Origin: an uncultured Acidobacteriaceae bacterium
Lineage (GTDB): Bacteria > Acidobacteriota > Terriglobia > Terriglobales > Acidobacteriaceae
Reading direction: 5' to 3'
DNA length: 64,000 bases
Assembly: GCA_963720135.1 (NCBI GenBank)
Contig: CAVREJ010000028.1
Coordinates: forward strand, 38,680 to 102,679
Shown here piece after piece: positions 1,287-25,388 of the stretch. How positions within the stretch are numbered: the first letter of the stretch is position 1; each line of letters opens with the position of its first letter. The position numbers were made by a program, and so were the translations under genes. A model generated the notes under the pieces. It made no database searches, was not told where the DNA came from, and saw only the letters and a list, made by a program, of their open reading frames with translations.

Positions 1287-1290
1287 CTGC

Positions 1291-3776: not shown

Positions 3777-4794
3777 ATGCGCGTTTGCGTGACTGGCGGC
3801 ACAGGTTTTTTGGGCGCGGCCCTGGTGCGAGACCTGCTGGCCCGCAAAGTTCCCGTTCGAGTGTTAGCCCGGCATTCGCAGCGTGCCGATCTACTGGAAA
3901 CGCACGGCGCGGAAGTTGTGCGTGGAGGATTGGAAGATGCAGACAGTATCACCCGCGCGGTTGAAGGGGTTGACGTTGTCTATCATCTCGCAGCCAAGGT
4001 CGATACTCCCGGCAAAAGAGCAGATTTCCTTAAAACCAATTTGGAGCGGAACGGAGAGGGTCCTGACCGCATGTCTCCGACAAGGGGTTAACCGCGTCGT
4101 ATATTCCAGTTCACTGGCAGTCTACGGCCCGGTCCGAAACGGCCGGCCAATCGACGAGACAACTCCCTACGATGCATCGCCGCAGCTACGCGACTTTTAT
4201 GCCGAATCGAAAATCCTGGCAGATGAGTTTGCCGTCAGCTTCGCACAAGAAACGGGATTACCGTTAACCATCGTCAGGCCTGGCATTGTGTATGGTCCAG
4301 GCAAGCAACTTCCGGTGGGCCTGCTGGGATTCACGCTGGGGAAGAGCAACTTCGTATTCGGCAATCCGAATAACCGCATTCCACTGAACTACGTGGAGAA
4401 TCTGGTCGATGCGTTGCACCTGGTTGTTCATTTCGCGAGTGATGAGCAACTCCAGCAATTCAATATCCTCGATGACGACGAACTCACCCTGGCGAAGTAC
4501 CACGCGGCGAGAACCGAGGTAGACAAAACGACAACTCATTTTTCCGGAGGTTGGCCGGTGCTTCTTGCGGCGCCTTTCGCGGAAGCCATCCTGCGAATGA
4601 CGCCAAACGGCGGCAGCGTGCGGTTTTCAAGGCACCAACTGAAGCGAGCGCTGCAGGATCGCTGGTATGACACGCATCGAATCCGCGAGCAAACCGGCTG
4701 GGTGCCGAAGGTGCCGCTGAAGGAAGCGCTGTACCGCACATGGAAAACTGACGCGAATCGTTCAACCAAACCTGGGCTGGGAGACGGAAGTTAG
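3777..4794 (+). pseudogene. NAD-dependent epimerase/dehydratase (extended SDR, 3-beta-HSD-like), interrupted by one apparent frameshift
   Basis: ORF 3777-4091 carries MRVCVTGGTGFLG. Overlapping ORF 3883-4794 carries the rest (VYSSSLAVYG, YAESK). The two frames join colinearly (...DFLKTNLE | GTERVLTAC...) if one base is added or removed near 4038-4052. Confidence 0.7.
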
Positions 4795-5561
4795 GACGCA
4801 CTAGAGGCAGTAGGAGTCGGGGTTTCTAAGAAAATCGGCGGGCCGGGCGAAGGAGAGGCGACTACGGTTCGCACCAGATCACCCGTAATTTGCCACCAAC
4901 CATAAAAGGTCTTGCCACCCTCATAAACGACGTGCAGCGGGCGCCAGCTGTTGAGGCTATCGGACTGCAAGGCGAAGGAAGGGTCTTCTGCGTGGTCTTC
5001 GTCTACCGGCTGCGCCGGACGGCCGGGATGAACTATCACGCTGCGGGTATCGATCCGAAGCCCAGTGCGCAGCGCTTTCATGGTGCTTTCCTTTGCACTC
5101 CAGAGCAAGGCCAAGAGCCGCGGTCGGTCGGGCGCGCACGTCCGCTCAATCAAGGCTCGCTCTCCATTCGTGAAGTAGTCGGCAATAAATGCGTCGCTAC
5201 GCGTCTCGATCAGTTCCAAGTCGCAACCCAGTTCCGCATTCGACGGCGCGATGGCACATGAAGCAACACCGGCGCGGTGGCTGAGCGAAATGGTAATCGG
5301 CACTGGTTTGTTCGCCACAAAAACTTCGGGCGCGCCAGACGCCGCCGGCCGTACCTCGATATCCGCAAGGGCACGCGGATGGCTGGGGAGCTTCCAGTAA
5401 ATCGCCAGCGCGCGTTTCCCCGTCCATCGGCCCAACCGCCAGTCGGCGTGGCGCTTGGCGAAACGCATACCGTCCAGTCGAGTCGCTTCGCTGGCGCTTA
5501 ACCAATCACTCTCCGACGGCACTTCGGCTTCGGTCTGTTCCAGCCAATACACGTCCATCAT
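4791..5561 (-). CDS. 4'-phosphopantetheinyl transferase (Sfp/PfaE type)
   Basis: 256 aa with a two-domain PPTase layout, GCDLE acidic site and LWSAKESTMKA (W-x-x-KE-x-x-x-K) motif. Its ATG overlaps the stop of the carboxylase gene (ATGA at 5558-5561). Confidence 0.8.
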   Translation of the reverse strand: MMDVYWLEQTEAEVPSESDWLSASEATRLDGMRFAKRHADWRLGRWTGKRALAIYWKLPSHPRALADIEVRPAASGAPEVFVANKPVPITISLSHRAGVASCAIAPSNAELGCDLELIETRSDAFIADYFTNGERALIERTCAPDRPRLLALLWSAKESTMKALRTGLRIDTRSVIVHPGRPAQPVDEDHAEDPSFALQSDSLNSWRPLHVVYEGGKTFYGWWQITGDLVRTVVASPSPGPPIFLETPTPTASSAS

Positions 5562-8500
5562 GCTTGTCCGACGCCGGAGATCATGAGTATCTCCTCAACG
5601 GGCGCCTCTTTCCGTAAAGGATTTCCGGCTTGTACCTCCCTGAGTACCGACTCCTCGGTCTTTCTCATGCCGCGTTCGACGGCATCGATGAGGTACGGGC
5701 GAAGACTTGCCGGCGGAAGAATACGATTCAGAGCACCTACCCTGAGTGCCCGATGCACACTATGTACGCGATCGAATTCCTCAGCCATCTCACCCAGCTT
5801 CTCCGAGTGTACGACTTTGAAAAGTTCGTTCCATTCAGCGCGCAGCCGGGCCTTCTCCTTGCCGTCGGCCTTAGCCATTGCTTGGGTCAGCGCTTCCACT
5901 CGCTCGTCCTTACGGGCCCGGGATTCGACTTCGCTGGAAAACACGACGGCCGCCGCGGGTGCGCCACCAATGACAGAAGCGTAAGTTCCCTCCAACGCTA
6001 CCACCTCGAGCTGCTCGTTCAGCGCCCGCGAGAAAACTACATACGCGCCCCCGTGATAGCGGGAAATCACGCAAAAGATCATGGGGCCTTTGAAGTTGAC
6101 CACGGCCCGCCCAATCTGCGCGCCGTACTCAAGCTGTAGCTTACGCATCGATTCGGGCGATCCGTCAAACCCCGACAGATTGGCCAGAATAACTACTGGC
6201 CGATTATTGCTGGCCGCATTGATCGCTCGAGCCAACTTCTTCGAGGAGAGAGGAAACAGCGTCCCAGCACTCCATTGGTCGGGTCCATCTGCCGGGACAA
6301 ATCCTAAGCGGGGGACCTGCTTGGATTCGATGCCGATGAGGCAAACCGGATAGCCGCCGAGATGGGCATCCCAAACCACTGCAGTTTCGGCGCCCCGCAT
6401 GCCGGGCCAGCGTTCCAGTGGACAAAGGTCCTGGTCCACAACTGCCCGCATCACGCTGCGAATGTCGAAGGACTTCTTCCGCCCGGCGTTGGTGTCGTCG
6501 GAGAAAATCTCGCCCACTCGAGCGAAACCGTTATCAGAACCGGTGCCGTGCGGGTATGCCCGCACATCGCGGTCAATGGGGTCGTTGGTGGCGGCCCGCC
6601 GCGGGAATCGCTCGCCCGGTGCTATGTAGGTGTGCTCATAATGGCGCAAAAGAATGTGGCAGGCTTGATCAATGTCGCGTGCCCAATACTGCGCCTGGCC
6701 GTTGATGCCCATGACGCGATCGTACCCGCCGATACCTTCGTTGTCCTCGGCTGAGACGCTGCCCGAATAATCAAGGGCACGCTTGCCGGTGAGCACCATT
6801 GCCGCTTTCGGCGTCATGATCAGAATGCCGCGGGTATGCATGAGCATGGTCGCTTCGGCGTTCCAATAGGGCTGTGCTCCGACGTTGATCCCGTTGATCA
6901 CCAGATTCACTTCGCCGCCTGCCTGCGTGAACTCGACCAGACGACGCAGGACGCGGGCAATCCAGTCCATGTTTTCCACGCCACTCTCCATCGAGATCTT
7001 CGCGCCAGCCGAGATCGGAAACCACTCCAGTGGAACGCCCATCTCTGCGGCAAGATCCAGGGCTGCTAGGATGCGCCGGCATTCGGGTTCAGCGAGTGCG
7101 CCCAGATCGCCGCTCGGATCGCCTAACAGCAACACTCTCGTCATGCCCTCGGGATACTTGGCGGTAAAGTTGCGGATGACGCCAACGATGATGTTGGATT
7201 TATTTTGTCCCGGCGCACGATCGACCGGTATCAGACGGCCTTCTGAATCAAGATCGTGCTCCAGAAAATCGCCGGGGGGGAATTCCGCGCGAGTATTCTC
7301 GCGGGCAGGCGTCAGCATTTTGATGATTTCGTAGGGATAAATGAGTCCCCGCCGGCGCATCCGAACGACCTTCTGGTTGTACTCGGTCAACGGTTTCATC
7401 AGTTGTAGCGTGCTAAGCGGCCTGAAGGTCATAAGCAAACCCGCGTCGCCGGGCGCCGAAATGCGCATCACCATGTCGCGCAATTCGCCGGTCTGCGGAT
7501 TGGGAATACAAGCGCGGACTACCACTTGTTCTAAACCCAGGCCATCCGTCGACGAGGCCAGTTTGTGTGCGATATCGTTGAGTTCATCCGGCTTGAGGTC
7601 GAATACCGGCCAAACGTAAAGGAAGATCCGATTCCAGTAGAGCCGCTCGTGCGCAGCGCGCCGCGACTGAAACAGCCGGATGCCCGCTACTGCTTCGGCG
7701 AACATGCGCTCCAAGTGTGGCAGTTGGACGATGCGACCTGTCTCGTCTCGTACCGGAGTTAAGTCACGGACTTCCGCAACCGCAAACAGCCGCTCGTCTT
7801 TGGGATTTTCTTTCGCCCTGGCATGCAGGAGATATACGTCTTCAACCGACGGCAGCCGCTCAACGGAAAAGTTCTTCAAGCGCCAGAGATGTAGCCGTTC
7901 GGCCATCATCGGGTGCACTCCACGGAAGAGCTTTTCTTCTGCAAAAACATTTGTGGAGAATTGATAAGTGAAGTGTTGCATGCCGGCCATGCCTTCGCCG
8001 CGACCAGGCCCCGAGACTGCCACCACGATCCGCTCAACGGGGCGAGGGAAGCAAGCCTGGTTAAGCCGGGAGCAAACTTCCTGCTGCGTGACCTCTTGCT
8101 CGGCCAGCGAACCGGAGTTCCACAGGTATAGATCGATAACAATGTCGTGCTCGGCCGGCACGTCCGCTATGCTAGGACACATTGCCTGTATCGCTTCCGC
8201 GAGCCGATCGTAATCAGCGTGGGCGGCCAAGACGTGGACGCGCCTTCCATCCTTGACATATTCCGCCGACACGCAGGAGTTTCCATTCGCCGGCAGAGGA
8301 CGAAAGTTCATGAGTGATTGCCCACGATAATATCGAGACGTGACCACTTCCAACATCAGGCGGCGCAACTCGGGGTCCGCGGCGGCAAAGCGGCGCGAGA
8401 AGAGGCTCGCCAGCGGTTGCGGACATTCGATCAACGCACTAACTCTCTCGTGCCGGTCCGCGGCTTCCGGGTTGGCAGCGAGGTAGGCGAGATGATCTCC

Positions 8501-11209
8501 GGCTTGCGCATAGATCTGTTTACGTGATTGCTCAAACAGCGCCTGCTCGAAGCACCGATAGCGCAGCTCGCGGGCGAGATGGCAGATGGAGGGAAAGGGT
8601 CCGCGGGTGATGGCAATCATTCGGTCCAGCAATAAACGGAACGAGTCGTCGGCGTGTGTCGCAAGGCTGTCGACACGTGCCAGACGCCGTTCCAGCAAAC
8701 CCAGAATAGGCGCCACTTGCCGCTCGACCCGTTGATGCGACTTGTAGATCCAGAGCAAGCTCTCTTCCAGTTCGGGCGAGCGGTCCAGAGTCTTCACGCC
8801 ATAATGAGCGAGGGTGCGCCGGAGCGCGTCCATAAACGCAGGCGGAAGTCCTTCGCCGTGCGTTTCCAGCATGCGCGAGTAGGAAAACAGGTACGCCTCG
8901 GTGCTGGGCTCTTCCCCACCGGCGGGACCATGCACGCTCGGCTTTCGGCGAAACAGAGAACATACATCCACAAAAATGTTGAGGATCTCATCTTCGCGGC
9001 GGACTACTTCGTCGCTGTCCGCCGGGGCTTCATGGAACTGACTCCATTGCGCGAACAGCCGCGTTGTCTGGGCCGGGTCCGCGTCGAAACCCAGCATGAG
9101 GTGCCGCAGTTCTTCCAAATCTTGCCGCCAGCGAGGTTGATTGCAAGGTTCGTTCGTGGTCGGCGTTTCACCAAACACCAGCCGCTGCATTGTTGCCGAT
9201 GTTTGGTCATCTGCGATGGCTTCGATTTGCACCAGTGGATCTCCGGCCGCTACCTGCACGTGCGGTATTGTCATTACTTGCCGCACTTTTCCGGAAAACG
9301 GCGCCATGACCGCCATCTCCATTTTCATTGCTTCCAACACAGCCAGGGTATCCCCGACGGAAACGGAGTCGCCCACCTTCACAGCGATGGAAACCACAAC
9401 TGACGGCCCCGGCGCGTGCACCACTCCACCGTCATCTCGATTGATCGAGTGCGACACGCCGTCCACTTCGATCCGGTAATTTACTCCTTGAACTACAGAA
9501 ACGAGGTGGAAGCGCCGTCCGAAGGCGGTGAGCCAATATTCAAACTTGCCCAGAGGGTGGATGAGAGCTTCGATGCATGATCCATCCACTTCTACGCGGT
9601 ACTGATGGGGGCCGAGGCAACAAATCCTGAGAGAGTAGCCTTGTCCTCGATAGCGCAGTTCCACGGTTCGGCCCAGCTCATGCCGAACGTGTGGGCGTCC
9701 GCGAACGGCTGAAGCATAGAACTGCGACTGTTCCACCGCCAACTCTGTGGAGTATGCCTCGATCGCGGCCTGCACCAGCGCTACCTGCGCGTGACGCCTG
9801 GAACAGTGCTCGCCGTTCGCCGCCAGACGGTCCAGCCATCCGATATCAACTTCGGCTCGCTGTACGTCGGGGCGGTTCACCAAGTCCAGCAGGAACGCCT
9901 TGTTACTGGCTCCGCCTTTGATGACGACAACGCTCTCGCGTAGCACCCGCTGCAGCCTGGAAAGAGCTTCCTTCCGGTTCTGCCCGTAGGTGATGATCTT
10001 GGCGATCATGGAGTCGAACTCCGGTGGGATAGCATCACCTACGGCCACACCGGTATCAATGCGCACTCCGGGGCCGGTGGCAAGCCTGAACCGTTCAATC
10101 ACACCCGGAGCGGGAGCGAATCCGTTTTCTGGATCTTCGGCGTTCAGCCGCACCTCAATCGCGTGACCGGTGGTCCGGGGAGGATCGCCTTCCAGACGTC
10201 CGCCGCGTGCGACGTGAATCTGAAGCTTGACGAGGTCGAATCCGGTGGTGCGTTCGGTCACTGGATGTTCGACTTGCAACCGGGTATTCATCTCCATGAA
10301 GGAGAAGCGGTGGCTTTCCGGTTGATACAGGAATTCAACGGTACCGGCGTTGTAATATCCTGCCGCCTGGCTCAAGCGCACAGCGGCCTCGCGGAGCGCC
10401 TGATCTTGCAGGATAGTAAGCGCGGGCGAGGGCGCTTCTTCCAGGACTTTCTGATGGTGGCGTTGAATGGTACAGTCACGCACTCCGACTGCCCACGTGG
10501 TCCCATACTGATCGGCGATGACCTGCACCTCAACGTGGCGCGCCGCCAGAAGCAATTGCTCCATGAAAACGGTGGCATTGCCGAAGGCCTTGAACGCTTC
10601 CGCGCGGGCGCCTTCAAAGGACGTCAGGAGCTGGGCCGCGGAGTTCACGCGACGAATGCCGTGACCGCCCCCTCCAGCGGTGGCCTTAATCAGGAGCGGA
10701 TAGCCAAGGCGTTCGGCATGACGCTTCGCATCAGCGAACGTTTCCACCGGGCCGCCGCTCCAGGGCGCCACCGGTATCTGGGCCTGCTCGGCCAGCAGTT
10801 TCGAGGCAATCTTGTCGCCCAGACGTCGCATCACATCGCCATCCGGGCCGATAAACACGATATCGAGCTTGCGGCAAAGGTCTGCGAACTCAGGGTGCTC
10901 CGCGACAAAACCCCATCCCACCCAGACCGCCTCCGCGCGTGCTGCCGTCAGCGTCCGTTCGAGCAAGTCATAATCGACGTAGCTGCTCTTGGAGTGACCC
11001 GTGGCCGGATCGTTGAGGAAAGCATCACCAAGAAACACGGCTTCGTCTGCCTCGCAAACGAACATAGCGTGGCGATCGGGCTCAGTGTAGAGCGCAATGG
11101 TACACAACGATGTGCCGTTCTCTTGATTGAACTCGCGCGCCGCATGTATGAAGCGCATCGCGGCTTCGCCACGATTGACAATGGCGACCCGTTGAAATTC
11201 GTGCTGCAT
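5558..11209 (-). CDS. Single-chain multidomain acetyl/acyl-CoA carboxylase (BC - BCCP - central region - CT)
   Basis: 1,883-aa ORF.
- Biotin carboxylase: RVAIVNRGEAA, AGGGGHGIR, MEMNTRLQVEHPVTE.
- Biotinyl domain: EAMKME, Lys codon AAA at 9323-9325.
- Long central region.
- C-terminal carboxyltransferase resembling multidomain eukaryote-type ACC.
GAGGAG SD lies upstream of ATG 11209. Confidence 0.9.
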   Translation of the reverse strand: MQHEFQRVAIVNRGEAAMRFIHAAREFNQENGTSLCTIALYTEPDRHAMFVCEADEAVFLGDAFLNDPATGHSKSSYVDYDLLERTLTAARAEAVWVGWGFVAEHPEFADLCRKLDIVFIGPDGDVMRRLGDKIASKLLAEQAQIPVAPWSGGPVETFADAKRHAERLGYPLLIKATAGGGGHGIRRVNSAAQLLTSFEGARAEAFKAFGNATVFMEQLLLAARHVEVQVIADQYGTTWAVGVRDCTIQRHHQKVLEEAPSPALTILQDQALREAAVRLSQAAGYYNAGTVEFLYQPESHRFSFMEMNTRLQVEHPVTERTTGFDLVKLQIHVARGGRLEGDPPRTTGHAIEVRLNAEDPENGFAPAPGVIERFRLATGPGVRIDTGVAVGDAIPPEFDSMIAKIITYGQNRKEALSRLQRVLRESVVVIKGGASNKAFLLDLVNRPDVQRAEVDIGWLDRLAANGEHCSRRHAQVALVQAAIEAYSTELAVEQSQFYASAVRGRPHVRHELGRTVELRYRGQGYSLRICCLGPHQYRVEVDGSCIEALIHPLGKFEYWLTAFGRRFHLVSVVQGVNYRIEVDGVSHSINRDDGGVVHAPGPSVVVSIAVKVGDSVSVGDTLAVLEAMKMEMAVMAPFSGKVRQVMTIPHVQVAAGDPLVQIEAIADDQTSATMQRLVFGETPTTNEPCNQPRWRQDLEELRHLMLGFDADPAQTTRLFAQWSQFHEAPADSDEVVRREDEILNIFVDVCSLFRRKPSVHGPAGGEEPSTEAYLFSYSRMLETHGEGLPPAFMDALRRTLAHYGVKTLDRSPELEESLLWIYKSHQRVERQVAPILGLLERRLARVDSLATHADDSFRLLLDRMIAITRGPFPSICHLARELRYRCFEQALFEQSRKQIYAQAGDHLAYLAANPEAADRHERVSALIECPQPLASLFSRRFAAADPELRRLMLEVVTSRYYRGQSLMNFRPLPANGNSCVSAEYVKDGRRVHVLAAHADYDRLAEAIQAMCPSIADVPAEHDIVIDLYLWNSGSLAEQEVTQQEVCSRLNQACFPRPVERIVVAVSGPGRGEGMAGMQHFTYQFSTNVFAEEKLFRGVHPMMAERLHLWRLKNFSVERLPSVEDVYLLHARAKENPKDERLFAVAEVRDLTPVRDETGRIVQLPHLERMFAEAVAGIRLFQSRRAAHERLYWNRIFLYVWPVFDLKPDELNDIAHKLASSTDGLGLEQVVVRACIPNPQTGELRDMVMRISAPGDAGLLMTFRPLSTLQLMKPLTEYNQKVVRMRRRGLIYPYEIIKMLTPARENTRAEFPPGDFLEHDLDSEGRLIPVDRAPGQNKSNIIVGVIRNFTAKYPEGMTRVLLLGDPSGDLGALAEPECRRILAALDLAAEMGVPLEWFPISAGAKISMESGVENMDWIARVLRRLVEFTQAGGEVNLVINGINVGAQPYWNAEATMLMHTRGILIMTPKAAMVLTGKRALDYSGSVSAEDNEGIGGYDRVMGINGQAQYWARDIDQACHILLRHYEHTYIAPGERFPRRAATNDPIDRDVRAYPHGTGSDNGFARVGEIFSDDTNAGRKKSFDIRSVMRAVVDQDLCPLERWPGMRGAETAVVWDAHLGGYPVCLIGIESKQVPRLGFVPADGPDQWSAGTLFPLSSKKLARAINAASNNRPVVILANLSGFDGSPESMRKLQLEYGAQIGRAVVNFKGPMIFCVISRYHGGAYVVFSRALNEQLEVVALEGTYASVIGGAPAAAVVFSSEVESRARKDERVEALTQAMAKADGKEKARLRAEWNELFKVVHSEKLGEMAEEFDRVHSVHRALRVGALNRILPPASLRPYLIDAVERGMRKTEESVLREVQAGNPLRKEAPVEEILMISGVGQA

Positions 11210-11248
11210 AAACTCTCCTCAACCGACCGGCCAGATCAATCGCATTGA

Positions 11249-14200: not shown

Positions 14201-15238
14201 CACGTGCGCCAGGGTGGGGTAATCGCGTAGTTTGCGGTTCTCGTCGCGAGGAATGTTGTAGATTTCACGAATGGCGGCGAACATCTCCGCTTGCTTCACC
14301 GTATCAACGCCGAGGTCCGCTTCCAGATCGAGATCGACATCCAACATGTCTTTGGGATAGCCGGTCTTTTCCACCATCAATTCGAGAATGCGTTCCTTCA
14401 CCGACTCGCCAGCACCGTTGTTAGGAGTCGCCACGGCTGCTGGTGTTGTCAGTTGGGGCGAAACCGGCGTAGTCGGGGCCGCTGGCTCGCTAATCGTCGG
14501 AGACAATGAAGGCGTACCGGCCAGGTCGGGCCGCTTGTCATACACGAATTGAATCACGTGCGCCAGTGTGGGGTAATCCCGCAGCTTGCGGTTTTCGTCG
14601 CGTGGGATGTTATAGATCTCACGGATGGCGGCGAACATCTCCGCCTGCTTGACCGTGTCGACGCCAAGGTCCGCTTCCAGATCAAGGTCGACGTCCAGCA
14701 TGTCTTTGGGATAGCCAGTCTTTTCCACCATCAAAGCCAGGATGCGCTGCTTCACGGAATCGCCAGCGCCATCGGCCGGCGATGTTACCGGCGGCACGGG
14801 TGCGGTCGGCTGGACCGCGACGGGCGTCGGCGCAGGTGCAGGCGCCTCGGTCGTTTTCGGCGAGGGAGGAGTACCGCCAGCCAAGTCCGGCCGCTTTTCG
14901 TACACGAACCGAATCACATGCGCCAATGTCGGGTAGTCACGCAGCTTGCGGTTCTCGTCGCGCGGAATGTTGTAGATCTCGCGAATCGCCGCGAACATTT
15001 CTGCCTGCTTGACCGTGTCCACACCGAGATCCGCTTCCAGATCAAGATCGACATCCAACATGTCTTGCGGGTAACCGGTCTTCTCAACCATTAAGGAAAG
15101 GATGCGTTCCTTCACCGATTCGCCAGCGCCGTTCCTAGGAAGCACAGCGGGGGTTGCCGCAGGAACCTTCGTTACTTCCTTCACCGTCGCCCGCGTGGCC
15201 GATGCCGTCACGGCCGGTATCTGTTCTTTGACCGGCAT
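11249..15238 (-). CDS. PfaA-like megasynthase, C-terminal part: 4x tandem carrier (ACP) domains - ketoreductase - hot-dog dehydratase
   Basis: 1,329 aa.
- Four repeats of ...LDLEADLG[VI]DTVKQAEMF...
- KR Rossmann FLITGAAGSIVSA and DYSSAND.
- DH motif HRIDGTPVLP (HxxxGxxxxP).
ATG 15238 has no obvious SD and lies inside the 3' end of the upstream ORF. This ORF is probably the continuation of 15135-20139. Confidence 0.9.
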   Translation of the reverse strand: MPVKEQIPAVTASATRATVKEVTKVPAATPAVLPRNGAGESVKERILSLMVEKTGYPQDMLDVDLDLEADLGVDTVKQAEMFAAIREIYNIPRDENRKLRDYPTLAHVIRFVYEKRPDLAGGTPPSPKTTEAPAPAPTPVAVQPTAPVPPVTSPADGAGDSVKQRILALMVEKTGYPKDMLDVDLDLEADLGVDTVKQAEMFAAIREIYNIPRDENRKLRDYPTLAHVIQFVYDKRPDLAGTPSLSPTISEPAAPTTPVSPQLTTPAAVATPNNGAGESVKERILELMVEKTGYPKDMLDVDLDLEADLGVDTVKQAEMFAAIREIYNIPRDENRKLRDYPTLAHVIQFVYDKRPDLSPTASSPSTTAEPTVPEPAAVVPATVTHASIKEKVLDIVAEKTGYPKDMLDLDLDLEADLGIDTVKQAEMFAAIRAAYNIPRDENLKLREFPTLAHVIQFAHAGQRTRLSAATVSATPAVATAKVARLPVANFDAADSIPRRVPVPNLRPPLNLCKPTGVKIGAGCRVIIMPDKGGVASALIQQLQAKGVEVFAIEDARDPDTLAKRLQGWLASGPVQGVYWLPALDYEGSISTLDLPAWHEALQIRVKLLYTTMRVLFDQVAQPGTFLVSATRLGGQHGYDEAGALAPLGGAVTGFTKTYKRERLDALVKAVDFEAESKTSEVAELLVEETLRDPGVVEVGYKDGQRWTVGLQEQPVADGQPGLTLNTDTVFLITGAAGSIVSAITADLAAASGGTFYLLDLVPEPDPNNPDVARFVADKDGLKRDLFARIQARGERATPALVEKELAALERAHAAKSAIDAVRAAGGTAHYFSVNLTDTAAVASIVNQVRQRSGRIDVLLHAAGVERSHFLPDKDPREFDLVFDVKSDGWFNLLRAIGDMPLGATVAFSSVAGRFGNGGQTDYSSANDLLCKITSSFRTTRPLTRGIVLDWSAWAGIGMATRGSIPKMMELAGIDMLRPEAGIPWIRRELTLGGSRGEVVVGQHLGVLLTEWDSTGGLDTDAFAAVAGKQTTAQGPMVGKITGMGIYSGLTMETTLDPKIQPFLYDHRIDGTPVLPGVMGIEGFAEAARCVLPGWHVEAVAEVNFLSPFKFYRDEPRTITVQAAYRPQGDSLVADCRLIGRRTLPNHPEPQETVHFTARVRLSKQTPTAVTGKTPQMSADSFIEAADIYRVYFHGPAYQVLQRAWWDGKQMVGVMAKGLPGNHRPSDQPTLMTPRLIELCFQTAGLWEMTVQNRFGLPLAVHEVSLLRAPALAESQLYAVVTPNPDQASFDAEVVDAKGNCYLRVFGYRTAAMPDGLNAEAFKTLHAVMA
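13865..15127 (-). repeat. Four tandem coding repeats (about 330-360 nt each) encoding carrier-protein domains
   Basis: Amino-acid repeats start at residues ~38, ~158, ~276 and ~386 of the 1,329-aa ORF. Copies 1-3 are nearly identical in protein sequence but differ at synonymous sites. A/P/T-rich linkers separate them. Confidence 0.9.
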
Positions 15239-18200
15239 CCATGCGACCGGATTTCGCCATGGGCTTTGGCGGTGCGGACGCTACTGGCGGAGCCACTTGC
15301 GCCTGCACTTCGGGCTTAGTGGCTGGCTTGGGCGCAGGTGCCGTTACTGGCACGGAATCCTTGGCGGCTCCGGCGATCCGCGCTGCCAATCCTTGATCCG
15401 GCACTCGTAACGTGCGGTGGACCACTTCCAGATTCGGGACCAGACGGCCTGCCATCCGGGTTAGCCAAGCATTCCAGGCATCCTTGTCGGCAATACGGTA
15501 GGAGTAGCCAAGCGCCTTGGGACTGCGACGAATGCCGTCCTTGGTCGGCAGCCACTTCAACAAAATGATGCTGATCTGTGAACCGAAACCGGCGCCCAAA
15601 TGCATTGCATACTGGACGGGATAGGCGCCGCCCTTCGACAGGTTCAGGACGCCCAGCTCGGGATCGACTTCCTTGAAGTTGGCAACGGGCGGCAGCAATC
15701 CCGTCTCCAGCGCCTTCACGGCGAGGACATCTTCAATACCAGTCCCCATGGCGTGACCAGTCATCCCTTTGGTGTTGGCGATCACGACTTGATCCGCGCT
15801 GTCGCCGAAGATGCGACGCAGTGCATGGATCTCCGCCGAAGCGCTGCCACCACGAGCAGGGGTGTAGGTCTCGTGCGAAACGAAAACCATTTGCGGAGCT
15901 ATTTCGTTGCGGGTAACCCCGGTGCGCGTTTCGACTTGGCTTACCAGGCCCTCCATCACCTGGCCGATGTGCTGGACATCGAGGCGAGTGCCGTGAAACG
16001 CGCTATTGGCCGTCACCGTGCCCAGCACTTCACATATGGGCTGGATTCCGCGTTCACGAGCGGCATCCAAGCTCTCAATCACGAGCGCGGCGGCGCCCAT
16101 GCCCATAATCATGCCGTGCCGGCGGCGATCGAAGGGAACGGCGGCATCTTCCACCTTTTCGTCGGTGGCTGAGGTTCCGCTGGCCAAAAATCCGGCGCCC
16201 ATCCATCCCATCAGGTGGTCCGAGGTGACATCGTCGGCCGAGATGACGATCACGCGGCGGCAGCGCCCCGCGCGGATCCAGTCCTGCGCCAACGAAACTC
16301 CTTGAGCAGTGGTCGCGCATGCGGAATTGATTTGCGTGTTGGGACCACGCGCGCCGATGAGCTCGGCGAACTGCGAGTGCCCCATCGACAAAACTCTCAG
16401 CAGGAAGCGCCGGTCGAAGACGTAGTTTTCTTTCTCGATTGTGCTGCGCAACTCCTCGATGCGCCGGTCTAATTCTTGCCCCAGGTCCGAATGGCCATTC
16501 CCTGCCGCGCGGAGGCGCAAACCCTCCAGCAAAGCCAACTGTGCGCGACGCTCATGGTCCTCGTGATAGCTCCCTATAATGTCGGCGAAGGAATCATAAC
16601 CGGGGAAGGCCGAGCCGAAAATCACGCCGGTGTCGTCACGCATACCGTCCGGCAAACCCCAACGGTCAGGTAACTGCGTGCCTTTGGTCGTGGTCTTATA
16701 ACGCATGACCAGGGGGATGCCGGCATCACGTAGCGCGTCGATTCCCGCGCCGATAGCCAGGCGAGTAACCTGGTCGAAGGCGGCGAGGTGCTCGGTGGGA
16801 ACGCCGAATTCACTTTCCAAATCGAAAGCGCCCCCGCGACCTGCTAGCTTGATAACATCCGCCACATCCGTGATGGACTCGAAAGTGGGCTCTCCCTTTT
16901 CGCTCTTAACCAAGCGTCTGATGCGCTTGTCCACCATCTCCTGGCGGAAGCGCGCAGGGATCGAGCTGATGAATTGGTCGCCACGCAAGATGCGTTCGAT
17001 ATTGCCATCGTCGAAGATGCGCTCGGTACCTGGCAGACCCAGCGATGCTCCCGTGATGCTGACTTGGAGATTCGCGCTGGCAGAAGTGTCGCCGTGATGC
17101 CAGCCGGCGCGTTCCAGGGTCTCGGTCAACAGACGGCCGAGCTCGTCATATCCATGACCGTTCGAACGAGTTGCCGGTGTCGGAAAAGCAGCCGTGACGG
17201 AAGCCACCACCGGCATTGGTCTGGTCTCGTTCGCTGCCACAGAAGGCGCAGGTCTCACTGGGATATCGACCGCCACATCGGGTCTCCCGTGGCCCAATCC
17301 CGCCCCATAAAGTGCGCACAGCGCCTGGTTGAAGGCCGGAATATCCCCGAATTTCGGGTGATTCGTGAAAAGCGAAACCACGTCGCCGCGTCCGCCGAGC
17401 ACTTCTTCTGCAAATCCCTGCAACGCCTTCTTCGGCCCCACTTCAACGAAGATTCGCGCGCCCGCATCGTAGAGCGTGTTCAAGCCTTTCACGAACTGTA
17501 CCGGCGAAGCGACCTGCTGCGCGAGAAGCTCCAGCATCTGCGGGACAACATCAGGTCCGTTGGGATAAAACTCGCCATTTACGTTGGCGACCACTGGCAC
17601 AAGAGGTGGCCGGACGTTCAGGTGCGATAGCATTTCGCGTAGAGGCTCGCTGGCCGGAGCCACAATCGAGGTGTGGAAGGCGTGGCTCACCGGCAAGGGG
17701 GCCACGTCGTACCCGGCTTGCAGGAAGATCTGTATGGCTTGCTCGACTGCCTGGCTGGCCCCGCCGATGACCGACTGCTGACCGCTGTTTACGTTGGCGA
17801 TCACAACGTAGCCGTCAATGGTCTTCAGGATTCGCTCGACTTCAGCAAGCGGCGCAAAGACCGCCGCCATCTTTCCGGTATCTTTCACGGCCACTTTCGT
17901 CATGCCCCGACCGCGGGCGCTGACTGCCGACAATGCGTCCTCGAAGGTAAGCGAGCCTGACGCGACTAAGGCGCCGTATTCGCCCAAGCTGTGTCCCATG
18001 GTCATGTCAGGCCGGATGCCATAAGCGTCCAACAGCCGGGTTAGTGCGAGGTCGATCGTCAGCACGGTGGGCTGAGTGATCTCGGTCTGGCGCAGATCTT
18101 CTTCCGCTTTCGCCACGGCGTCCGGGTTAGTTTTGTCCACGAAGACAAACTCGCTCAATGGCCTGCCCAGCAGCGGAGTCATGATGCGGTCCGCTTCGGC

Positions 18201-20139
18201 AAACGTCTTGGCTACGATTGGTTCGGCAGCGCAGAGAGGCTCAAGCATGTTGACGTACTGCGAGCCTTGCCCGGTGTACAGGAACGCCACTTTGCCGGCA
18301 GTGCCGCTTCCACGGAAGATACCTTGTGGACGCAGGGCCTTCCAGATGGGAGGTTGATTGGCTTTCAGCGCCTTCAGGGCTTTGATCGATTTGTCGGCCA
18401 AATCGACGGCATCGGCGTAGTCAATCGCCAGGCGTTCGGGAGCTCTCAGGTCCGATTCCGCTGGAGCCGATGGTGCTGGTGCACGACCTGCCGCTGCATC
18501 CTGTTGAACTGCCTGCAGACGCTCCGCTAGAGCCACATCTGATTCAGCGCCGATCACGAGTGCGCCTCTCAATGGTGGTTTGCTGGAGACAGCTGATGGT
18601 GACAGAGACGCAACAGTCGGCACAGGAACAACAGCCGCCACGCTGACCGTCTGCTCTGCCACAACTGGCGATGGTGCGCTGACTGCAACCGAATGCCTGC
18701 CATTTCCGTTGAGCTTGCCGGGTATGTACTCTTCGAGGACGGCGTGGAAGTTGGTGCCGCCAAACCCGAAGGCGCTCAGCCCGACTCGCCGCGTGACATC
18801 CGCGGGGACCGTCCACGGTCGCAACTCGGTGTTGACATATAGAGGGGAGCGAGCAAAGTCAATGGCCGGGTTGGGATGTTTGAAATTCAGGCTGGGCGGC
18901 AACACCTTATCGCGCAGCGCCAAGGTTGCTTTCAGCAATCCAGCCGCGCCCGCGGCTCCTTTCAGATGCCCAATGTTCGATTTAACAGAGCCCAGTGCCA
19001 CCGACCCGGCGGGGAGATTCAAATTGCCGAACACATCGGCCATGCTTTGCAATTCAATCGCGTCGCCCACGCTGGTCGACGTGCCATGGCCTTCCATCAA
19101 CGTACCGGCGGTTGGAGATAACCCGGCATTTTGCCAGCCGCGCTCGATAGCCAGCTTTTGACCAATCGGGTTGGGCGCCGTAATTCCCTTTCCCTTGCCG
19201 TCGCTCGCACCGCCAATCCCGCGCAGCAGCGGCGTAGATTTTGTCGCCATCGTGCTCGGCATCGGCCAAACGCTTGAGCAAAAAGATCGCCGCGCCTTCG
19301 CCCATTACGAAACCATCGGCTCCCTCCGCGTAGGGACGGCTATCGATCGCCGAGAGCGCCCCGATCTTGCAAAACTTAACGAAGGTGGGGGCTCCCATGT
19401 TGCGATCGATCCCGCCGCAGACCGCCACGTCAAAGTCATTCGCCACTAGCCCTTCGACCGCCGAGCTGATCGCCGCCATTGCCGATGCGCACGCCGCATC
19501 GCACACGTAATTGGGCCCGTGAAAGTTGTAGATATTCGCAATGCGGCCGGCAATGCAGTTGGCCAATTCGCCGGGCATGCTGTCTTCTGTAATTTCAGGG
19601 AGGAGCTTAGCCATGCGGTCGTGCAATTCGCGCGTGATGTCTCGACGTGCTCCCGCCGGCAACGCGGCGAAGGTGGCGCTATCCGCCAACTCACGAGCGT
19701 ATTCCGGAAAGTGCACGCGCAATGAGGTGAGGTAATGTCTTTCGCCAGCCATGGCATTGCCCAGGATTACTGCAGTGCGATCAAGATTCAGTGGCCGCTT
19801 AGGATAGCCATAGTCTTCCAACGCTTCGCGGGTAGACGCGATGGCCCATTTTTGCGCAATGTCCATGGCATCGATTACGCGGGGCGGTATGGGCAGATGC
19901 CACTTCATTGGCTCCCACACATATTCCCGCACCCAGCCACCGATCTTCGAGTAGGTCTTGTCGGGCGCGCTGTGGTCGGAATCGTAATAAAGCGCCGGGT
20001 CCCAACGATCGGATGGAACCTCGCTGATGCTGTAACGGCTGTTCTTCACGTTTTCCCAGAAAGCCGGTACGTTCACGGCATCGGGTAGAACTGCCCCTGC
20101 CCCCACAATCGCAATCGCACGATGAGCGGTGTTTTCCAT
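15135..20139 (-). pseudogene. PfaA-like megasynthase, N-terminal part: KS - acyltransferase - second KS (one internal apparent frameshift)
   Basis: Frame 1 (20139 to ~19230): KS1 with DAACAS, Cys codon at 19489-19491.
Frame 2 (~19229 to 15135):
- KS1 C-half (EGHGTST, KSNIGH).
- AT with GHSLGE, Ser codon at 17988-17990.
- KS2 with NSACATT, Cys codon at 16317-16319, plus SHETYTP and TGHAMG.
- A/P/K-rich linker at the 3' end. Confidence 0.85.
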
Positions 20140-20417
20140 GTCTGGTCACTTCCTTTGGAACATTCTTTTGACTCGAACGAAAATGGTGGCTATCGGGCGA
20201 CGAAAAGCAGGCGTTCGGAGGTTGGGGCCTGTCTCACTCTTTCCCACGCGGGGAGTGACGATCCACTCTCACGGCCTGGATGACCCGGGTGCGCCCGAGA
20301 GCATCCCTACTGTGACAGGAGGCCTGTATCTGTGTCAGTGATGTAACGTTGGGGGCTCGGTGATGCAGGCCACACGGGAGGGTGATACGTCGCGAGTTAG
20401 ACTATTTGCATTATAAG

Positions 20418-20480
20418 TTACAACATATACATTACGTATTGCAACACGTATATTAAGTGTTGCAACATTAATTGTTGGAT
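20418..20480. promoter_or_regulatory. Three 21-bp-phased TT[A/G]CAACA direct repeats in an AT-rich island (candidate operator/promoter region)
   Basis: TTACAACA at 20418, TTGCAACA at 20439 and TTGCAACA at 20460. The last copy overlaps the palindrome CAACA-TTAAT-TGTTG (20463-20477). The site lies upstream of the megasynthase gene start at 20139. Confidence 0.4.
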
Positions 20481-20503
20481 AGGGCCGGACCAAAGCAGAT
20501 ACC

Positions 20504-20536
20504 ACAGGCATCCGATTCGCAAAACCGGATGCCTGT
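20504..20536 (-). terminator. Hairpin downstream of the acyl-CoA dehydrogenase gene (candidate terminator)
   Basis: ACAGGCATCCG (20504-20514) and CGGATGCCTGT (20526-20536) form an 11-bp perfect stem with an 11-nt loop, 20 nt after the acd stop. The T-rich tract is clearer on the plus strand (ATTTGTTTCT) than on the minus strand. Confidence 0.45.
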
Positions 20537-20555
20537 ATTTGTTTCTGTCCCACGC

Positions 20556-22241: not shown

Positions 22242-22263
22242 TGTCGGTGCCTCTCTTTGTCTC

Positions 22264-24035: not shown

Positions 24036-24141
24036 GTTAACTCTCCACGAATTGATGTGCTCCGTTTCACGATTGGTGTCGCCCAGCTAATACGGGTAGT
24101 GCGGCGCTTTAGCTGGATAGTCATCTGTTTTCGGCAGCTTT

Positions 24142-24166
24142 GAAGGGGCACGGCTTCAGCCGTGCC
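24142..24166. repeat. 25-nt hairpin-containing repeat, left copy
   Basis: GAAGGGGCACGGCTTCAGCCGTGCC. It contains an 8-bp self-complementary stem (GGCACGGC/GCCGTGCC) and is the exact reverse complement of 25308-25332. Confidence 0.8.
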
Positions 24167-24249
24167 ATAAACCCGCCGTCATTTTGGTGGCTTTAGCCTC
24201 TGAGGGGCCTCGGTGTTGAAACCAAGTGCGACCTCCCTCAGCGGCTAAA

Positions 24250-25283: not shown

Positions 25284-25307
25284 AGCCTAACTCTTCACAC
25301 TCATAAC

Positions 25308-25332: not shown

Positions 25333-25388
25333 AAGAGCGGTTGAAGCAATTTTTCTTCCTGCGTCTGCCTTCGACCTGAAGGCCAGCA

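What the first reader, a model, noticed from the sequence alone, without database searches (positions are those of the whole stretch)
4791..20139. Self-contained PfaA-like megasynthase cluster (own single-chain ACC and PPTase) lacking PfaB/C/D, ER and TE functions
Seen: co-directional, tightly packed genes run from 20139 down to 4791, separated by a 39-nt gap and an ATGA overlap. They encode a megasynthase (KS-AT-KS-4xACP-KR-DH), a 1,883-aa carboxylase and an Sfp-type PPTase.

Established: canonical pfa/PUFA-type secondary-lipid clusters combine PfaA (KS-MAT-ACPn-KR-DH) with PfaC (KS-CLF-DH-DH), PfaD (enoyl reductase) and usually PfaB. None of these, and no thioesterase or ER domain, is visible anywhere in this window.

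Inference: this is a reduced iterative synthase with a private malonyl-CoA supply. It would make a hydroxy- or enoyl-rich long-chain product rather than a classical PUFA. I do not recognise this gene set as a described pathway.
Basis: partly seen in the sequence, partly recalled or inferred. Interest (0 to 1): 0.8.

Follow-up and report, generated by a model that had tools for sequence, protein, structure and literature searches.

The report
Acidobacterial "Type R" fatty-acid-like synthase operon
This is a soil-acidobacterial copy of an already catalogued but never characterised lipid-synthase gene cluster, and it turns out to belong to a larger conserved operon that probably supplies the "missing" reduction step and uses carrier domains with an unheard-of threonine where the cofactor normally attaches to serine.

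Summary
The genes are there as described: an Sfp-type PPTase (4791-5561), an 1,883-aa eukaryote-style single-chain ACC (5558-11209) and a KS-MAT-KS-4xACP-KR-DH megasynthase (11249-20139). The synthase is split by two frameshifts.

The set is not undescribed. It is the "Type R" secondary-lipid synthase of Shulse & Allen (2011), who noted the ACC between the pfaA and pfaE homologues in Koribacter. Its product is still unknown.

etfD-etfB-etfA-ACAD (20556-27529) is syntenic with the synthase in essentially every acidobacterial locus examined. In distant relatives the same 5' position holds a PfaD/FabK-type ER (fused or adjacent) or an OYE ene-reductase. I therefore infer that the ACAD, wired through ETF and EtfD to menaquinone, is the trans enoyl reductase. 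That would make this a self-contained FAS-like system rather than an ER-less one.

Two further points:
- KS2 keeps Cys-His-His, so it is not a true CLF.
- All ACP repeats in the family (264 of 264 in the 80 genome loci plus the window) carry Thr instead of the pantetheinylated Ser. I found no report of this in the paper searches.

The frameshifts are probably assembly errors. An IS481 element inserted between etfD and etfB is real.

The parts
4791..5561 (-). Sfp-type 4'-phosphopantetheinyl transferase (256 aa), last gene of the operon; its start overlaps the ACC stop (ATGA)
   Evidence: Pfam ACPS 1.4e-17. Motifs GCDLE, WSAKESxxK and SLSH are present. It lies downstream of the synthase or ACC in the related loci.
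5558..11209 (-). Eukaryote-style single-chain acetyl-CoA carboxylase, 1,883 aa: BC - BCCP (EAMKM, K629) - ACC_central - CT
   Evidence: Pfam. The C-terminal half matches best to yeast, Chaetomium and human ACC CT domains in the PDB. Biotinylation motif. Present in most acidobacterial loci and absent in 9 of them. An orthologue lies in the distant locus L167.
11249..20139 (-). One iterative type I synthase gene (about 2,956 aa once repaired): KS1-MAT-KS2-4xACP-KR-DH. In this window two frameshifts split it into three ORFs (19054-20139, 15135-19262, 11249-15238).
   Evidence: Pfam and NCBIfam. It is a single 2,850-3,390-aa ORF in most relatives. Frameshift sites were compared with relatives. dN/dS is 0.08-0.17.
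15561..17069 (-). KS2 domain (the 'CLF' of Shulse & Allen). It retains Cys (16308-16331), His (15858-15878) and His (15744-15761).
   Evidence: Sequence. Cys, His and His were conserved in 64, 75 and 78 of 80 loci; there was no substitution wherever the motif could be matched.
13961..15031 (-). Four tandem ACP domains with DLG(V/I)DTVKQAE. The Thr codons are at 15014-15016, 14654-14656, 14300-14302 and 13976-13978, in place of the pantetheinylated Ser.
   Evidence: Alignment to E. coli AcpP places the Thr in the Ser36 column. Thr in 264 of 264 motifs across the 80 genome loci plus the window. Thr is also present in distant KS2-containing representatives. There is no Ser-type ACP motif in 4600-28100.
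11252..13705 (-). KR (Y at 12461-12475) and PKS-type double-hotdog DH (HxxxGxxxxP at 12014-12043)
   Evidence: Pfam KR, PS-DH and PKS_DH_N; motifs.
20140..20555 (-). 416-nt intergenic region. It holds a hairpin just after the ACAD stop and three palindromic TGTTGYAAYW sites at 21-nt spacing (20416-20467). It is probably an internal promoter/operator specific to this clade.
   Evidence: In most other loci the ACAD-synthase gap is only about 40-120 nt.
20556..22289 (-). Long-form acyl-CoA dehydrogenase (about 560 aa in homologues) with catalytic Glu in IYEGTSE and a helical C-terminal extension. It is the candidate trans-acting enoyl reductase.
   Evidence: Pfam. PDB hits to ACADs and to Bcd and CarC. 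Identity is 77-99% across loci. 56 of 57 ACAD-selected metagenome loci have the synthase directly downstream. Orthologues sit next to distant synthases. dN/dS is 0.03-0.07.
22264..24035 (-). etfA (22264-23247) and etfB (23247-24035), a non-bifurcating-type electron transfer flavoprotein
   Evidence: Pfam. The group-2 motifs RxGV, GxxSPTxV and RPxFGG are absent. ETF alpha lies upstream of the ACAD in 62 of 62 metagenome loci.
24140..25334 (+). IS481-family insertion sequence (transposase 24267-25283, perfect 27-bp terminal inverted repeats). It interrupts the operon between etfD and etfB and is specific to this genome.
   Evidence: Pfam LZ_Tnp_IS481 and rve. Inverted repeats. Absent from the 93%-identical relative L060 and from all other loci.
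25389..27529 (-). etfD: membrane-bound Fe-S ETF:menaquinone oxidoreductase. It has 4-5 N-terminal hydrophobic helices, 2x[4Fe-4S] and CCG domains. Here it is split into 26132-27529 and 25389-26036.
   Evidence: Pfam. The intact 709-aa orthologue matches M. smegmatis EtfD (PDB 9ojn) at 4e-86. Architecture as described in PMC13083937. Hydropathy. It is the first gene of the conserved block.

Best explanation
The region is the distal part of a conserved acidobacterial operon, etfD-etfB-etfA-ACAD-synthase-ACC-PPTase (window 27529 down to 4791). The operon encodes the 'Type R' PfaA-like secondary-lipid synthase in its Koribacter-type form.

**Shown here:**
- The single-chain ACC has all the domains and motifs needed to make malonyl-CoA.
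- The synthase is one iterative type I protein with two catalytically complete ketosynthases, a malonyl-specific AT, four tandem ACPs, a KR and a DH. It has no ER and no TE.
- A canonical Sfp-type PPTase is co-encoded.
- A long-form ACAD, a non-bifurcating ETF and a membrane EtfD are strictly co-located.

**Inferred mechanism:**
- The ACC feeds malonyl-CoA to the MAT.
- The PPTase activates the ACPs. These carry Thr at the attachment site, so they probably need this dedicated enzyme.
- KS, KR and DH run iterative cycles on the ACP-bound chain.
- The ACAD reduces the trans-2-enoyl-thioester intermediates in trans. Electrons would flow menaquinol -> EtfD -> ETF -> ACAD, which is the reverse of the beta-oxidation direction.
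- The system would therefore behave as a self-contained FAS-like machine that makes a largely saturated long-chain acyl product.

How the chain is released is unknown. In this particular assembly the synthase and etfD reading frames are broken, most likely by sequencing errors. A genuine IS481 insertion separates etfD from etfB.
For: **Type R identity.** Literature. The domain parse matches it, including the ACC between synthase and PPTase.

**Synteny.**
- 80 species-level genome loci show FeS/CCG-ETFb-ETFa-ACAD-synthase-(ACC)-PPTase wherever the flanks allow.
- Flanks beyond this block are not conserved.
- In loci selected on the ACAD alone, 56 of 57 have the synthase next and 62 of 62 have ETF upstream. 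The median ACAD-to-KS1 gap is about 90 nt.

**ACAD tracks the synthase.**
- Actinomycetota loci keep the ACAD (67-71% identity) without ETF genes.
- In distant loci L163 and L167 the ACAD orthologue (53% and 47%) co-diverges with the synthase.

**Non-orthologous replacement at the same position.**
- An OYE-type Oxidored_FMN gene lies directly upstream in L162.
- An NMO (PfaD/FabK-type) ER is fused to the N-terminus in P0324, P0339, P0366 and P0387.
- A 512-aa NMO gene is adjacent in L165.

**Redox chain.** The EtfD homologue matches PDB 9ojn at 4e-86 and has the architecture described in PMC13083937. The catalytic Glu of the ACAD is conserved.

**Selection.** All genes are under purifying selection.

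**Frameshifts are probably artefacts.**
- Most relatives have a single ORF.
- Breaks in other long-read MAGs fall at different places.
- Unrelated genes in the window are also split.
Against: - No experiment links any Type R cluster to a product.
- The direction of the ACAD reaction cannot be read from sequence. EtfD, ETF and ACAD are the classical beta-oxidation chain, and that chain runs oxidatively in mycobacteria.
- The ETF lacks the NADH-accepting (group 2) motifs. Reduction would therefore have to be driven by menaquinol. By my own estimate from standard textbook potentials this is thermodynamically feasible, but it is unproven here.
- Some distant Type R loci (L161, L168, L170) show no ER-type neighbour at all.
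- ACADs normally act on CoA thioesters, not ACP thioesters.
- In this clade a 416-nt gap with operator-like sites separates the ACAD from the synthase, so the two may not be co-transcribed here.
- No release enzyme is identified.
- A Ser-to-Thr change abolishes pantetheinylation of E. coli AcpP (PMC3340395), so the activity of these ACPs is itself an assumption.
Confidence: 0.58

Rival explanations
1. First reader's model. This is an ER-less iterative PfaA-like synthase with private ACC and PPTase that releases an enoyl-, polyene- or hydroxy-rich chain. The upstream ACAD/ETF/EtfD genes are ordinary beta-oxidation genes that merely sit next to it.
For: - The synthase itself has no ER domain.
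- Enediyne PKSE and PfaA use the same KS-AT-ACP-KR-DH logic to make polyenes (own knowledge).
- Three distant Type R loci have no ER-like neighbour.
- A 416-nt gap with a terminator-like hairpin lies between the ACAD and the synthase in this clade.
Against: - The ACAD orthogroup is found next to the synthase in 56 of 57 ACAD-selected loci.
- It co-diverges with the synthase across about 50% identity and across phyla.
- NMO-type or OYE-type ene-reductases take its place in other lineages, sometimes fused to the synthase.
Confidence: 0.17
2. The ACAD module works in the usual oxidative direction as a tailoring or turnover step. It would introduce a 2,3-double bond into, or begin degradation of, the finished acyl chain and pass the electrons via ETF and EtfD to menaquinone. 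Enoyl reduction during synthesis would be borrowed from the housekeeping FabI/FabK.
For: - EtfD, ETF and ACAD form the established oxidative chain in mycobacteria (PMC13083937).
- The ETF is of the non-bifurcating type.
- ACAD homologues act as dehydrogenases on carrier-bound substrates in several natural-product pathways (own knowledge).
Against: The enzymes that replace the ACAD in other lineages (PfaD/FabK-type NMO, OYE) are reductases, not desaturases. A dedicated ACC and tandem ACPs also argue for a high-flux synthase that needs its own complete cycle.
Confidence: 0.15
3. In this particular genome the cluster is a decaying pseudo-operon. The two synthase frameshifts, the etfD break and the IS481 insertion would all be real, so nothing is made.
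For: - The IS481 element has perfect 27-bp inverted repeats and is absent from the closest relative, so it is a genuine recent insertion.
- Neither synthase frameshift lies in a homopolymer run.
Against: - dN/dS is 0.08-0.17 for the synthase pieces.
- Unrelated genes across the window are also split (ABC transporter, permease, amidohydrolase, epimerase).
- The sister MAG L060 and other long-read MAGs show breaks at different positions.
- The IS lies in an intergenic spacer.
Confidence: 0.2

Closest known systems
Type R secondary lipid synthase cluster (Shulse & Allen 2011; Koribacter versatilis Ellin345, Solibacter usitatus, Roseiflexus, Elusimicrobium)
   Same: It has a single pfaA homologue with KS-MAT-second KS-like domain-tandem ACPs-KR, a PPTase gene downstream and no pfaB/C/D. 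In Koribacter an ACC gene lies between the two, exactly as here.
   Different: The published description stops at two or three genes and calls the second KS a CLF. Here KS2 keeps Cys-His-His and a PKS-type DH follows the KR. The conserved unit also includes etfD-etfBA-ACAD, and the ACPs carry Thr. None of these points is mentioned in that paper. The product remains unknown.
PfaA of the pfaABCDE polyunsaturated fatty acid synthase
   Same: The best NCBIfam match is TIGR02813 omega_3_PfaA, for all three ORF pieces. Both have KS-MAT...tandem ACP-KR-DH and a dedicated Sfp-type PPTase.
   Different: Each of the three ORF pieces scores far below the family cut-off (174, 393 and 408 bits against 1010). 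An extra KS lies between AT and the ACPs. There is no PfaB, PfaC (KS-CLF-DH-DH) or PfaD. The ACP motif is DTVKQAE, not DSIKRVE.
Mycobacterial FadE - EtfAB - EtfD beta-oxidation electron chain (and ACAD/ETF complexes that run reductively, e.g. clostridial Bcd-EtfAB or acryloyl-CoA reductase)
   Same: The three components are present: ACAD, heterodimeric ETF, and a membrane EtfD with 2x[4Fe-4S], CCG domains and a transmembrane region. The best NCBIfam hit of the ACAD and ETF alpha, and the second-best of ETF beta, are the acryloyl-CoA reductase subunits, although all score far below cut-off.
   Different: Here the genes are fused into one operon with a type I synthase. The ETF lacks the bifurcating group-2 motifs, so an NADH-driven Bcd-type mechanism is unlikely. 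The direction of electron flow is untested.
Enediyne polyketide synthase PKSE (KS-AT-ACP-KR-DH-PPTase)
   Same: Both are iterative type I enzymes with KR and DH but no ER. Both have an associated PPTase, which is fused at the C-terminus in some distant Type R relatives.
   Different: PKSE has one ACP, no second KS, no ACC partner and a dedicated thioesterase, and it makes a conjugated polyene (own knowledge). Here an ER-type partner is linked. Phylogenetic placement was not tested.
Eukaryotic multi-domain acetyl-CoA carboxylase
   Same: The domain order BC-BCCP-central domain-CT lies on one chain. The CT half is closest to fungal and human ACC in the PDB.
   Different: It is about 350-500 residues shorter, has a reduced central region, is bacterial and is embedded in a biosynthetic operon. 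Substrate specificity was not tested.

Membership tests
Type R secondary lipid synthase cluster (Shulse & Allen 2011) | One pfaA homologue with KS-MAT-CLF-ACP(3-6)-KR | tested here: met
   Pfam and NCBIfam give KS, AT, a second KS-like domain, 4 ACPs and KR, plus a DH. The 'CLF' is the same domain but is catalytically complete.
Type R secondary lipid synthase cluster (Shulse & Allen 2011) | PPTase gene downstream; in Koribacter an ACC gene lies between synthase and PPTase | tested here: met
   ACC at 5558-11209 and PPTase at 4791-5561. The description is in PMC3098273.
Type R secondary lipid synthase cluster (Shulse & Allen 2011) | Occurs in Acidobacteria and is orthologous to the Koribacter/Solibacter genes | tested here: met
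   The closest homologues (65-93% identity) are annotated Koribacter/Korobacteraceae, Bryobacteraceae/Solibacteraceae and Terriglobales. The reference Ellin345 sequence itself was not retrieved.
Canonical pfa PUFA synthase (pfaABCDE) | PfaC (KS-CLF-DH-DH), PfaD (NMO-type ER) and PfaB (AT) genes beside pfaA | tested here: not met
   There is no further KS, AT or NMO in the 64-kb window and none in the Pfam scans of the other ORFs. None is present in the flanks of the 80 related genome loci.
Canonical pfa PUFA synthase (pfaABCDE) | PfaA equivalog score (TIGR02813 cut-off 1010 bits) and ACP motif LGIDSIKRVE | tested here: not met
   Each of the three ORF pieces scores below the cut-off: 174, 393 and 408 bits. 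The ACP motif is DLG(V/I)DTVKQAE.
Carrier proteins of the PP-binding superfamily | Conserved Ser at the start of helix II as the 4'-phosphopantetheine attachment site | tested here: not met
   Thr aligns with Ser36 of E. coli AcpP in all four repeats and in 264 of 264 repeats across the 80 genome loci plus the window. Whether the Thr is modified cannot be tested with these tools.
Chain length factor (CLF) | KS-like domain lacking the active-site Cys | tested here: not met
   KS2 has INSACATT, SHETYTP and TGHAMG. Cys, His and His were conserved wherever the motif could be matched.
Eukaryote-type single-chain ACC | BC, BCCP with MKM biotinylation motif, central domain and CT on one polypeptide | tested here: met
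   Pfam domains. EAMKM at K629. PDB matches to fungal and human ACC over the CT half. Acetyl-CoA specificity was not tested.
Sfp-type PPTase | About 230-260 aa, ACPS fold, motifs (V/I)G(I/V)D..E and (F/W)(S/C/T)xKE(S/A)xxK | tested here: met
   Pfam ACPS. GCDLE and WSAKESTMK are present.
EtfD-type ETF:menaquinone oxidoreductase | N-terminal transmembrane region, two [4Fe-4S] domains and two CCG domains | tested here: met
   The 709-aa orthologue in L059 was characterised by Pfam, by a match to PDB 9ojn at 4e-86 and by hydropathy. The window copy is split. Haem and quinone ligands were not checked.
Bifurcating (group 2) ETF / Bcd-EtfAB-type NADH-dependent enoyl-CoA reductase | Motifs RxGV and GxxSPTxV in the small subunit and RPxFGG in the large subunit | tested here: not met
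   The motifs are defined in PMC10734219. They are absent from the window ETF, which has RQEFGG instead.
Trans-acting enoyl reductase of a type I synthase (functional class, not a sequence family) | Reduces ACP-bound trans-2-enoyl intermediates of the partner synthase | not testable with these tools
   There is only comparative evidence: strict linkage, co-divergence, and replacement by NMO or OYE reductases.

The most novel reading that the evidence does not exclude
The whole Type R family would use carrier domains that are phosphopantetheinylated on threonine by their co-encoded PPTase. That would be the first natural O-(4'-phosphopantetheinyl)-threonine carrier proteins. It would give an activation system orthogonal to the cell's AcpS/ACP. 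In Acidobacteria the family would also complete its fatty-acid cycle with a menaquinol-driven ACAD/ETF/EtfD enoyl reductase instead of an NAD(P)H-dependent ER. Together with the eukaryote-like ACC, this would amount to a previously unrecognised, self-contained type I fatty-acid synthase system in one of the most abundant soil phyla.
Probability: 0.3. Interest if true: 0.85.

Novelty: new member of a known kind. Interest (0 to 1): 0.6.

Why it matters
Acidobacteriota are among the most abundant soil bacteria and their membrane lipids are used as environmental proxies. This large, highly conserved operon recurred in 113 relatives found in a species-level genome collection and in at least 550 ACAD relatives in metagenome contigs. 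It still has no known product 15 years after it was catalogued.

Three things would follow if the inferences hold:
- It would add a third kind of bacterial fatty-acid synthesis machinery: type I, with a private ACC, PPTase and quinone-linked reductase.
- It would show non-orthologous replacement of enoyl reductases (ACAD, PfaD-type, OYE) within a single synthase family.
- It would overturn the rule that carrier proteins are always modified on serine.

The Thr-ACP/PPTase pair could also be useful as an orthogonal tagging or pathway-insulation tool.

Tried and rejected
- **Full-length homologue search.** Searching with the repaired 2,956-aa protein failed in the tool, so I used the 1,375-aa middle ORF instead.
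- **ACAD homologue search**. It was swamped by relatives of 87% identity or more and gave no distant context. I replaced it with the ACAD-seeded metagenome scan.
- **AlphaFold model of the ACAD**. It was poor (pLDDT 51) because the alignment was shallow. I did not use it for fold search. It suggests only a helical C-terminal extension. A sequence search with that extension gave only a marginal hit to an ACAD alpha-domain (E = 0.27).
- **'unk373' ORF** (24156-25277, minus strand). This is not a cluster gene. It is the antisense frame of an IS481 transposase.
- **Natural split of the synthase after KS2.** I considered whether the many roughly 1,650-aa database entries reflect a real split. I rejected this because most species-level genomes have one continuous ORF, and the breaks that do occur are at varying positions.
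- **Downstream sugar and hopanoid-like genes** (30-4794). I considered whether they belong to the cluster. They are convergent or unlinked, and they are not found after the PPTase in the loci whose flanks extend that far.
- **Promoter and terminator consensus scans.** They gave no more hits than shuffled sequence.
- **Literature searches.** I looked for a product, for Thr-ACPs and for ACAD-linked Pfa-like synthases. Nothing turned up beyond Shulse & Allen.
- **PDB search with the PPTase.** It found nothing at E <= 0.01.

Full report
**1. The observation.**

The minus strand between 4791 and 20139 carries five ORFs: 4791-5561, 5558-11209, 11249-15238, 15135-19262 and 19054-20139. Pfam and NCBIfam assign them as follows:
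- an ACPS-family PPTase;
- a single-chain carboxylase with BC, BCCP, ACC_central and carboxyltransferase;
- three pieces that together read KS-AT-KS-ACPs-KR-DH.

The first KS is cut in two by the ORF1/ORF2 boundary. The ORF2/ORF3 boundary falls in the KS2-ACP linker.

Compared with relatives, the first break is a 1-nt insertion near 19219. The second is a 10-nt indel near 15215-15240.

The repaired protein is about 2,956 aa. Its catalytic motifs are all present:
- KS1: Cys-His-His.
- MAT: GHSLG and HAFH, the malonyl-type signature.
- KR: Y-x3-N.
- DH: HxxxGxxxxP.

The ACC has the EAMKM biotinylation motif. Its carboxyltransferase half is closest to fungal and human ACC. The PPTase has the Sfp-type motifs.

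**2. Source and state of the sequence.**

The closest proteins and loci are all Acidobacteriota: Acidobacteriaceae, Korobacteraceae, Bryobacteraceae and Sulfotelmatobacter. The nearest locus is a long-read MAG, L060, at about 93.5% DNA identity.

In most species-level genomes the synthase is one uninterrupted ORF of 2,850-3,390 aa. Where it is fragmented, the breaks differ from genome to genome. L060 has its own indel a few codons from the window's first frameshift.

Several unrelated genes in the window are also split. Examples are an ABC transporter whose ABC_tran domain is divided between two ORFs, a permease, an amidohydrolase and an epimerase.

dN/dS against two relatives is 0.08-0.17 for the synthase, about 0.09 for the ACC and 0.03-0.07 for the ACAD and ETF.

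I conclude that the frameshifts are most likely assembly errors. The sequence alone cannot prove this.

One disruption is real. An IS481-family element (24140-25334) has perfect 27-bp inverted repeats and is absent from L060. It sits between etfD and etfB.

**3. It is a catalogued cluster type.**

Shulse & Allen (PLoS One 2011, PMC3098273) define "Type R". It is one pfaA homologue with KS-MAT-CLF-ACP(3-6)-KR, followed by a PPTase gene. They found it in Koribacter, Solibacter, Elusimicrobium and Roseiflexus.

They state that in Koribacter versatilis Ellin345 a gene for acetyl-CoA carboxylase separates the pfaA and pfaE homologues.

They list the product as uncharacterised. Ten full-text searches found no later paper that assigns a product (among them). 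That the pathway is unknown remains true.

**4. The real unit is larger.**

Immediately upstream on the same strand lie four genes:
- a long-form acyl-CoA dehydrogenase (20556-22289);
- ETF alpha (22264-23247);
- ETF beta (23247-24035);
- a Fe-S/CCG membrane protein (25389-27529).

The intact orthologue of the last gene matches M. smegmatis EtfD (PDB 9ojn) at 4e-86. It shares the architecture of a transmembrane region, 2x[4Fe-4S] and CCG domains.

I examined 80 species-level genome loci retrieved with the synthase. The order etfD-etfB-etfA-ACAD-synthase-(ACC)-PPTase holds wherever the flanks reach. The genes beyond either end are not conserved.

To remove the selection bias I retrieved 80 metagenome loci with the ACAD alone.
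- 56 of 57 with enough downstream sequence have KS1 next. The median gap is about 90 nt.
- 62 of 62 with enough upstream sequence have ETF upstream.

The ACAD is the best conserved gene of the block, at 77-99% identity where the synthase is 65-93%.

Actinomycetota loci keep the ACAD and the ACC next to the synthase but lack ETF genes. The ACC is missing, with the PPTase following the synthase directly, in nine acidobacterial loci.

**5. Why I think the ACAD is the missing enoyl reductase.**

A profile-free search of 1.8 billion representatives with ACP4-KR-DH gave distant family members, at about 40-60% KS identity. I looked up the genomic contexts of some of them.
- L163: ACAD-synthase-PPTase.
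- L167: ACAD-synthase-PPTase-single-chain ACC. In both loci the ACAD is a full-length orthologue (53% and 47%) that co-diverges with the synthase.
- L162: an Old-Yellow-Enzyme-family gene directly upstream.
- L164: a PfaD/FabK-type NMO domain fused to the N-terminus and a PPTase fused to the C-terminus.
- L165/L166: a 512-aa NMO gene next to CT-BC-BCCP-synthase-PPTase.

Other long representatives also carry N-terminal NMO domains.

Three unrelated enzyme families thus occupy the same position. The one activity they share is reduction of a C=C bond conjugated to a (thio)ester. That is the classical signature of non-orthologous displacement of a required function.

Malonyl-CoA supply is likewise provided in three different formats.

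The most economical reading is a self-contained FAS-like cycle:
- the ACC makes malonyl-CoA;
- MAT, KS, KR and DH act on the tandem ACPs;
- the ACAD reduces the enoyl intermediate.

The ETF lacks the three motifs of bifurcating, NADH-accepting ETFs. Combined with the co-encoded EtfD, this points to menaquinol as the electron source. That is an inference. From standard textbook values (my own knowledge, not a tool result), the menaquinone couple lies below the enoyl/acyl-thioester couple, so the reduction would be thermodynamically feasible.

There are counter-arguments.
- The same three proteins form the oxidative beta-oxidation chain in mycobacteria.
- Three distant loci show no reductase neighbour.
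- In the window's own clade a 416-nt spacer separates the ACAD and the synthase. It carries a hairpin and three palindromic TGTTGYAAYW sites at 21-nt spacing.

No thioesterase or other release enzyme was found.

**6. Two features of the synthase that differ from the published description.**

First, the "CLF" is a complete ketosynthase. Cys, His and His are present in the window. They are unchanged in every related locus where the motif could be matched.

Second, all four ACPs read DLG(V/I)DTVKQAE. In an alignment with E. coli AcpP the Thr falls in the Ser36 column.
- Across the 80 genome loci plus the window, 264 of 264 repeats have Thr and none has Ser.
- No Ser-type carrier motif exists elsewhere in the operon, on either strand.
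- Among distant representatives, nearly every protein with the KS-AT-KS architecture has Thr.
- The KS2-less PfaA-type representatives have the usual DSIKRVE.
- One KS2-containing outlier (P0383) has Ser.

In E. coli, AcpP S36T cannot be pantetheinylated and is non-functional (PMC3340395).

Either the co-encoded PPTase modifies threonine, or these domains work in some other way. The paper searches and Shulse & Allen's text make no mention of this.

**7. Verdict.**

The system is non-canonical and self-supplied with malonyl-CoA and a PPTase. The interpretation misses the linked reductase module, sets the boundary too short and overstates novelty.

The locus is a new member of the known Type R kind. 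Its interest lies in the family rather than in this copy:
- the product is unknown;
- it is a very widespread, strongly constrained operon in a dominant soil phylum;
- it has a probable quinone-linked ACAD-type enoyl reductase;
- it has a family-wide Ser-to-Thr change at the carrier attachment site.

Noticed in passing
window 24140-25334: An intact IS481-family insertion sequence (transposase 24267-25283 on the + strand, perfect 27-bp terminal inverted repeats) is inserted between etfD and etfB, antisense to the operon. It is absent from the 93%-identical relative L060 and from all other loci.
   Followed up: yes
window 20416-20467 (within the gap 20140-20555): Three palindromic TGTTGYAAYW sites lie at exact 21-nt spacing. 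A 10-bp-stem hairpin directly after the ACAD stop precedes them. The motif occurs nowhere else in the window. Similar sites, at 21-nt spacing in L001, L002 and L060, lie in the same gap of close relatives, including L061. This is likely an operator or promoter for an unknown regulator.
   Followed up: partly
window 27989-29891; 25389-27529; 3662-4794; 53330-55399: Many genes unrelated to the finding are split or truncated. They include an ABC transporter whose ABC_tran domain is divided between two ORFs, etfD, an epimerase, an amidohydrolase and an amino-acid permease. This suggests an indel-error-prone (long-read) assembly.
   Followed up: partly
window 62213-62385 and 63013-63213 (+): There are two Rfam group II intron domain hits: D1-D4-4 (74.6 bits) and D1-D4-6 (103.7 bits). 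No reverse-transcriptase ORF was looked for.
   Followed up: no
window 32477-38938 (-): This is a Hox-like NAD(P)-linked [NiFe] hydrogenase gene set. It comprises a large subunit, a small subunit (Oxidored_q6), HoxU-like and HoxE-like proteins, and a 795-aa Nuo51-type subunit fused to a GltD-like/NAD-binding part, plus a Pyr_redox_2 protein.
   Followed up: no
window 49375-52254 (-): A 959-aa protein of the animal haem peroxidase family (Pfam 3e-67), which is unusual in bacteria.
   Followed up: no
window 30-4794: Next to the PPTase lie a UDP-sulfoquinovose-synthase-like gene (478 bits, below the cut-off of 575), an HpnI-like glycosyltransferase, an unassigned FAD oxidoreductase and an HpnA/OleD-like reductase. 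These could be glycolipid or hopanoid head-group genes. They are not conserved with the cluster in the loci whose flanks reach that far.
   Followed up: partly
L164 (P0324), and P0339, P0366, P0387, P0334: Distant family members fuse a PfaD/FabK-type NMO enoyl reductase (one or two copies) to the N-terminus, or a PPTase to the C-terminus; P0324 carries both. The fullest form is a single 3,500-4,000-aa ER-KS-AT-KS-ACPn-KR-DH-PPTase protein.
   Followed up: partly
L170 (P0383): This is the only KS-AT-KS-type representative seen with Ser-type ACPs (DLGIDSVKVAE). It has a C-terminal extension that was not scanned (a fused PPTase by analogy with relatives) and no ER or ACC neighbour. It may mark the Ser/Thr transition in the family.
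   Followed up: no
L089 (metagenome contig Ga0335078_10018856): This is the single ACAD-selected locus in which the sequence downstream of the ACAD is not the synthase. It could be a rearrangement or a chimeric contig.
   Followed up: partly
window 45569-46447 (-): An MDR-family zinc-type dehydrogenase (the fold used by PKS/FAS ER domains) lies 25 kb from the cluster, next to an AraC/DJ-1 regulator. There is no evidence that it is linked to the synthase.
   Followed up: no
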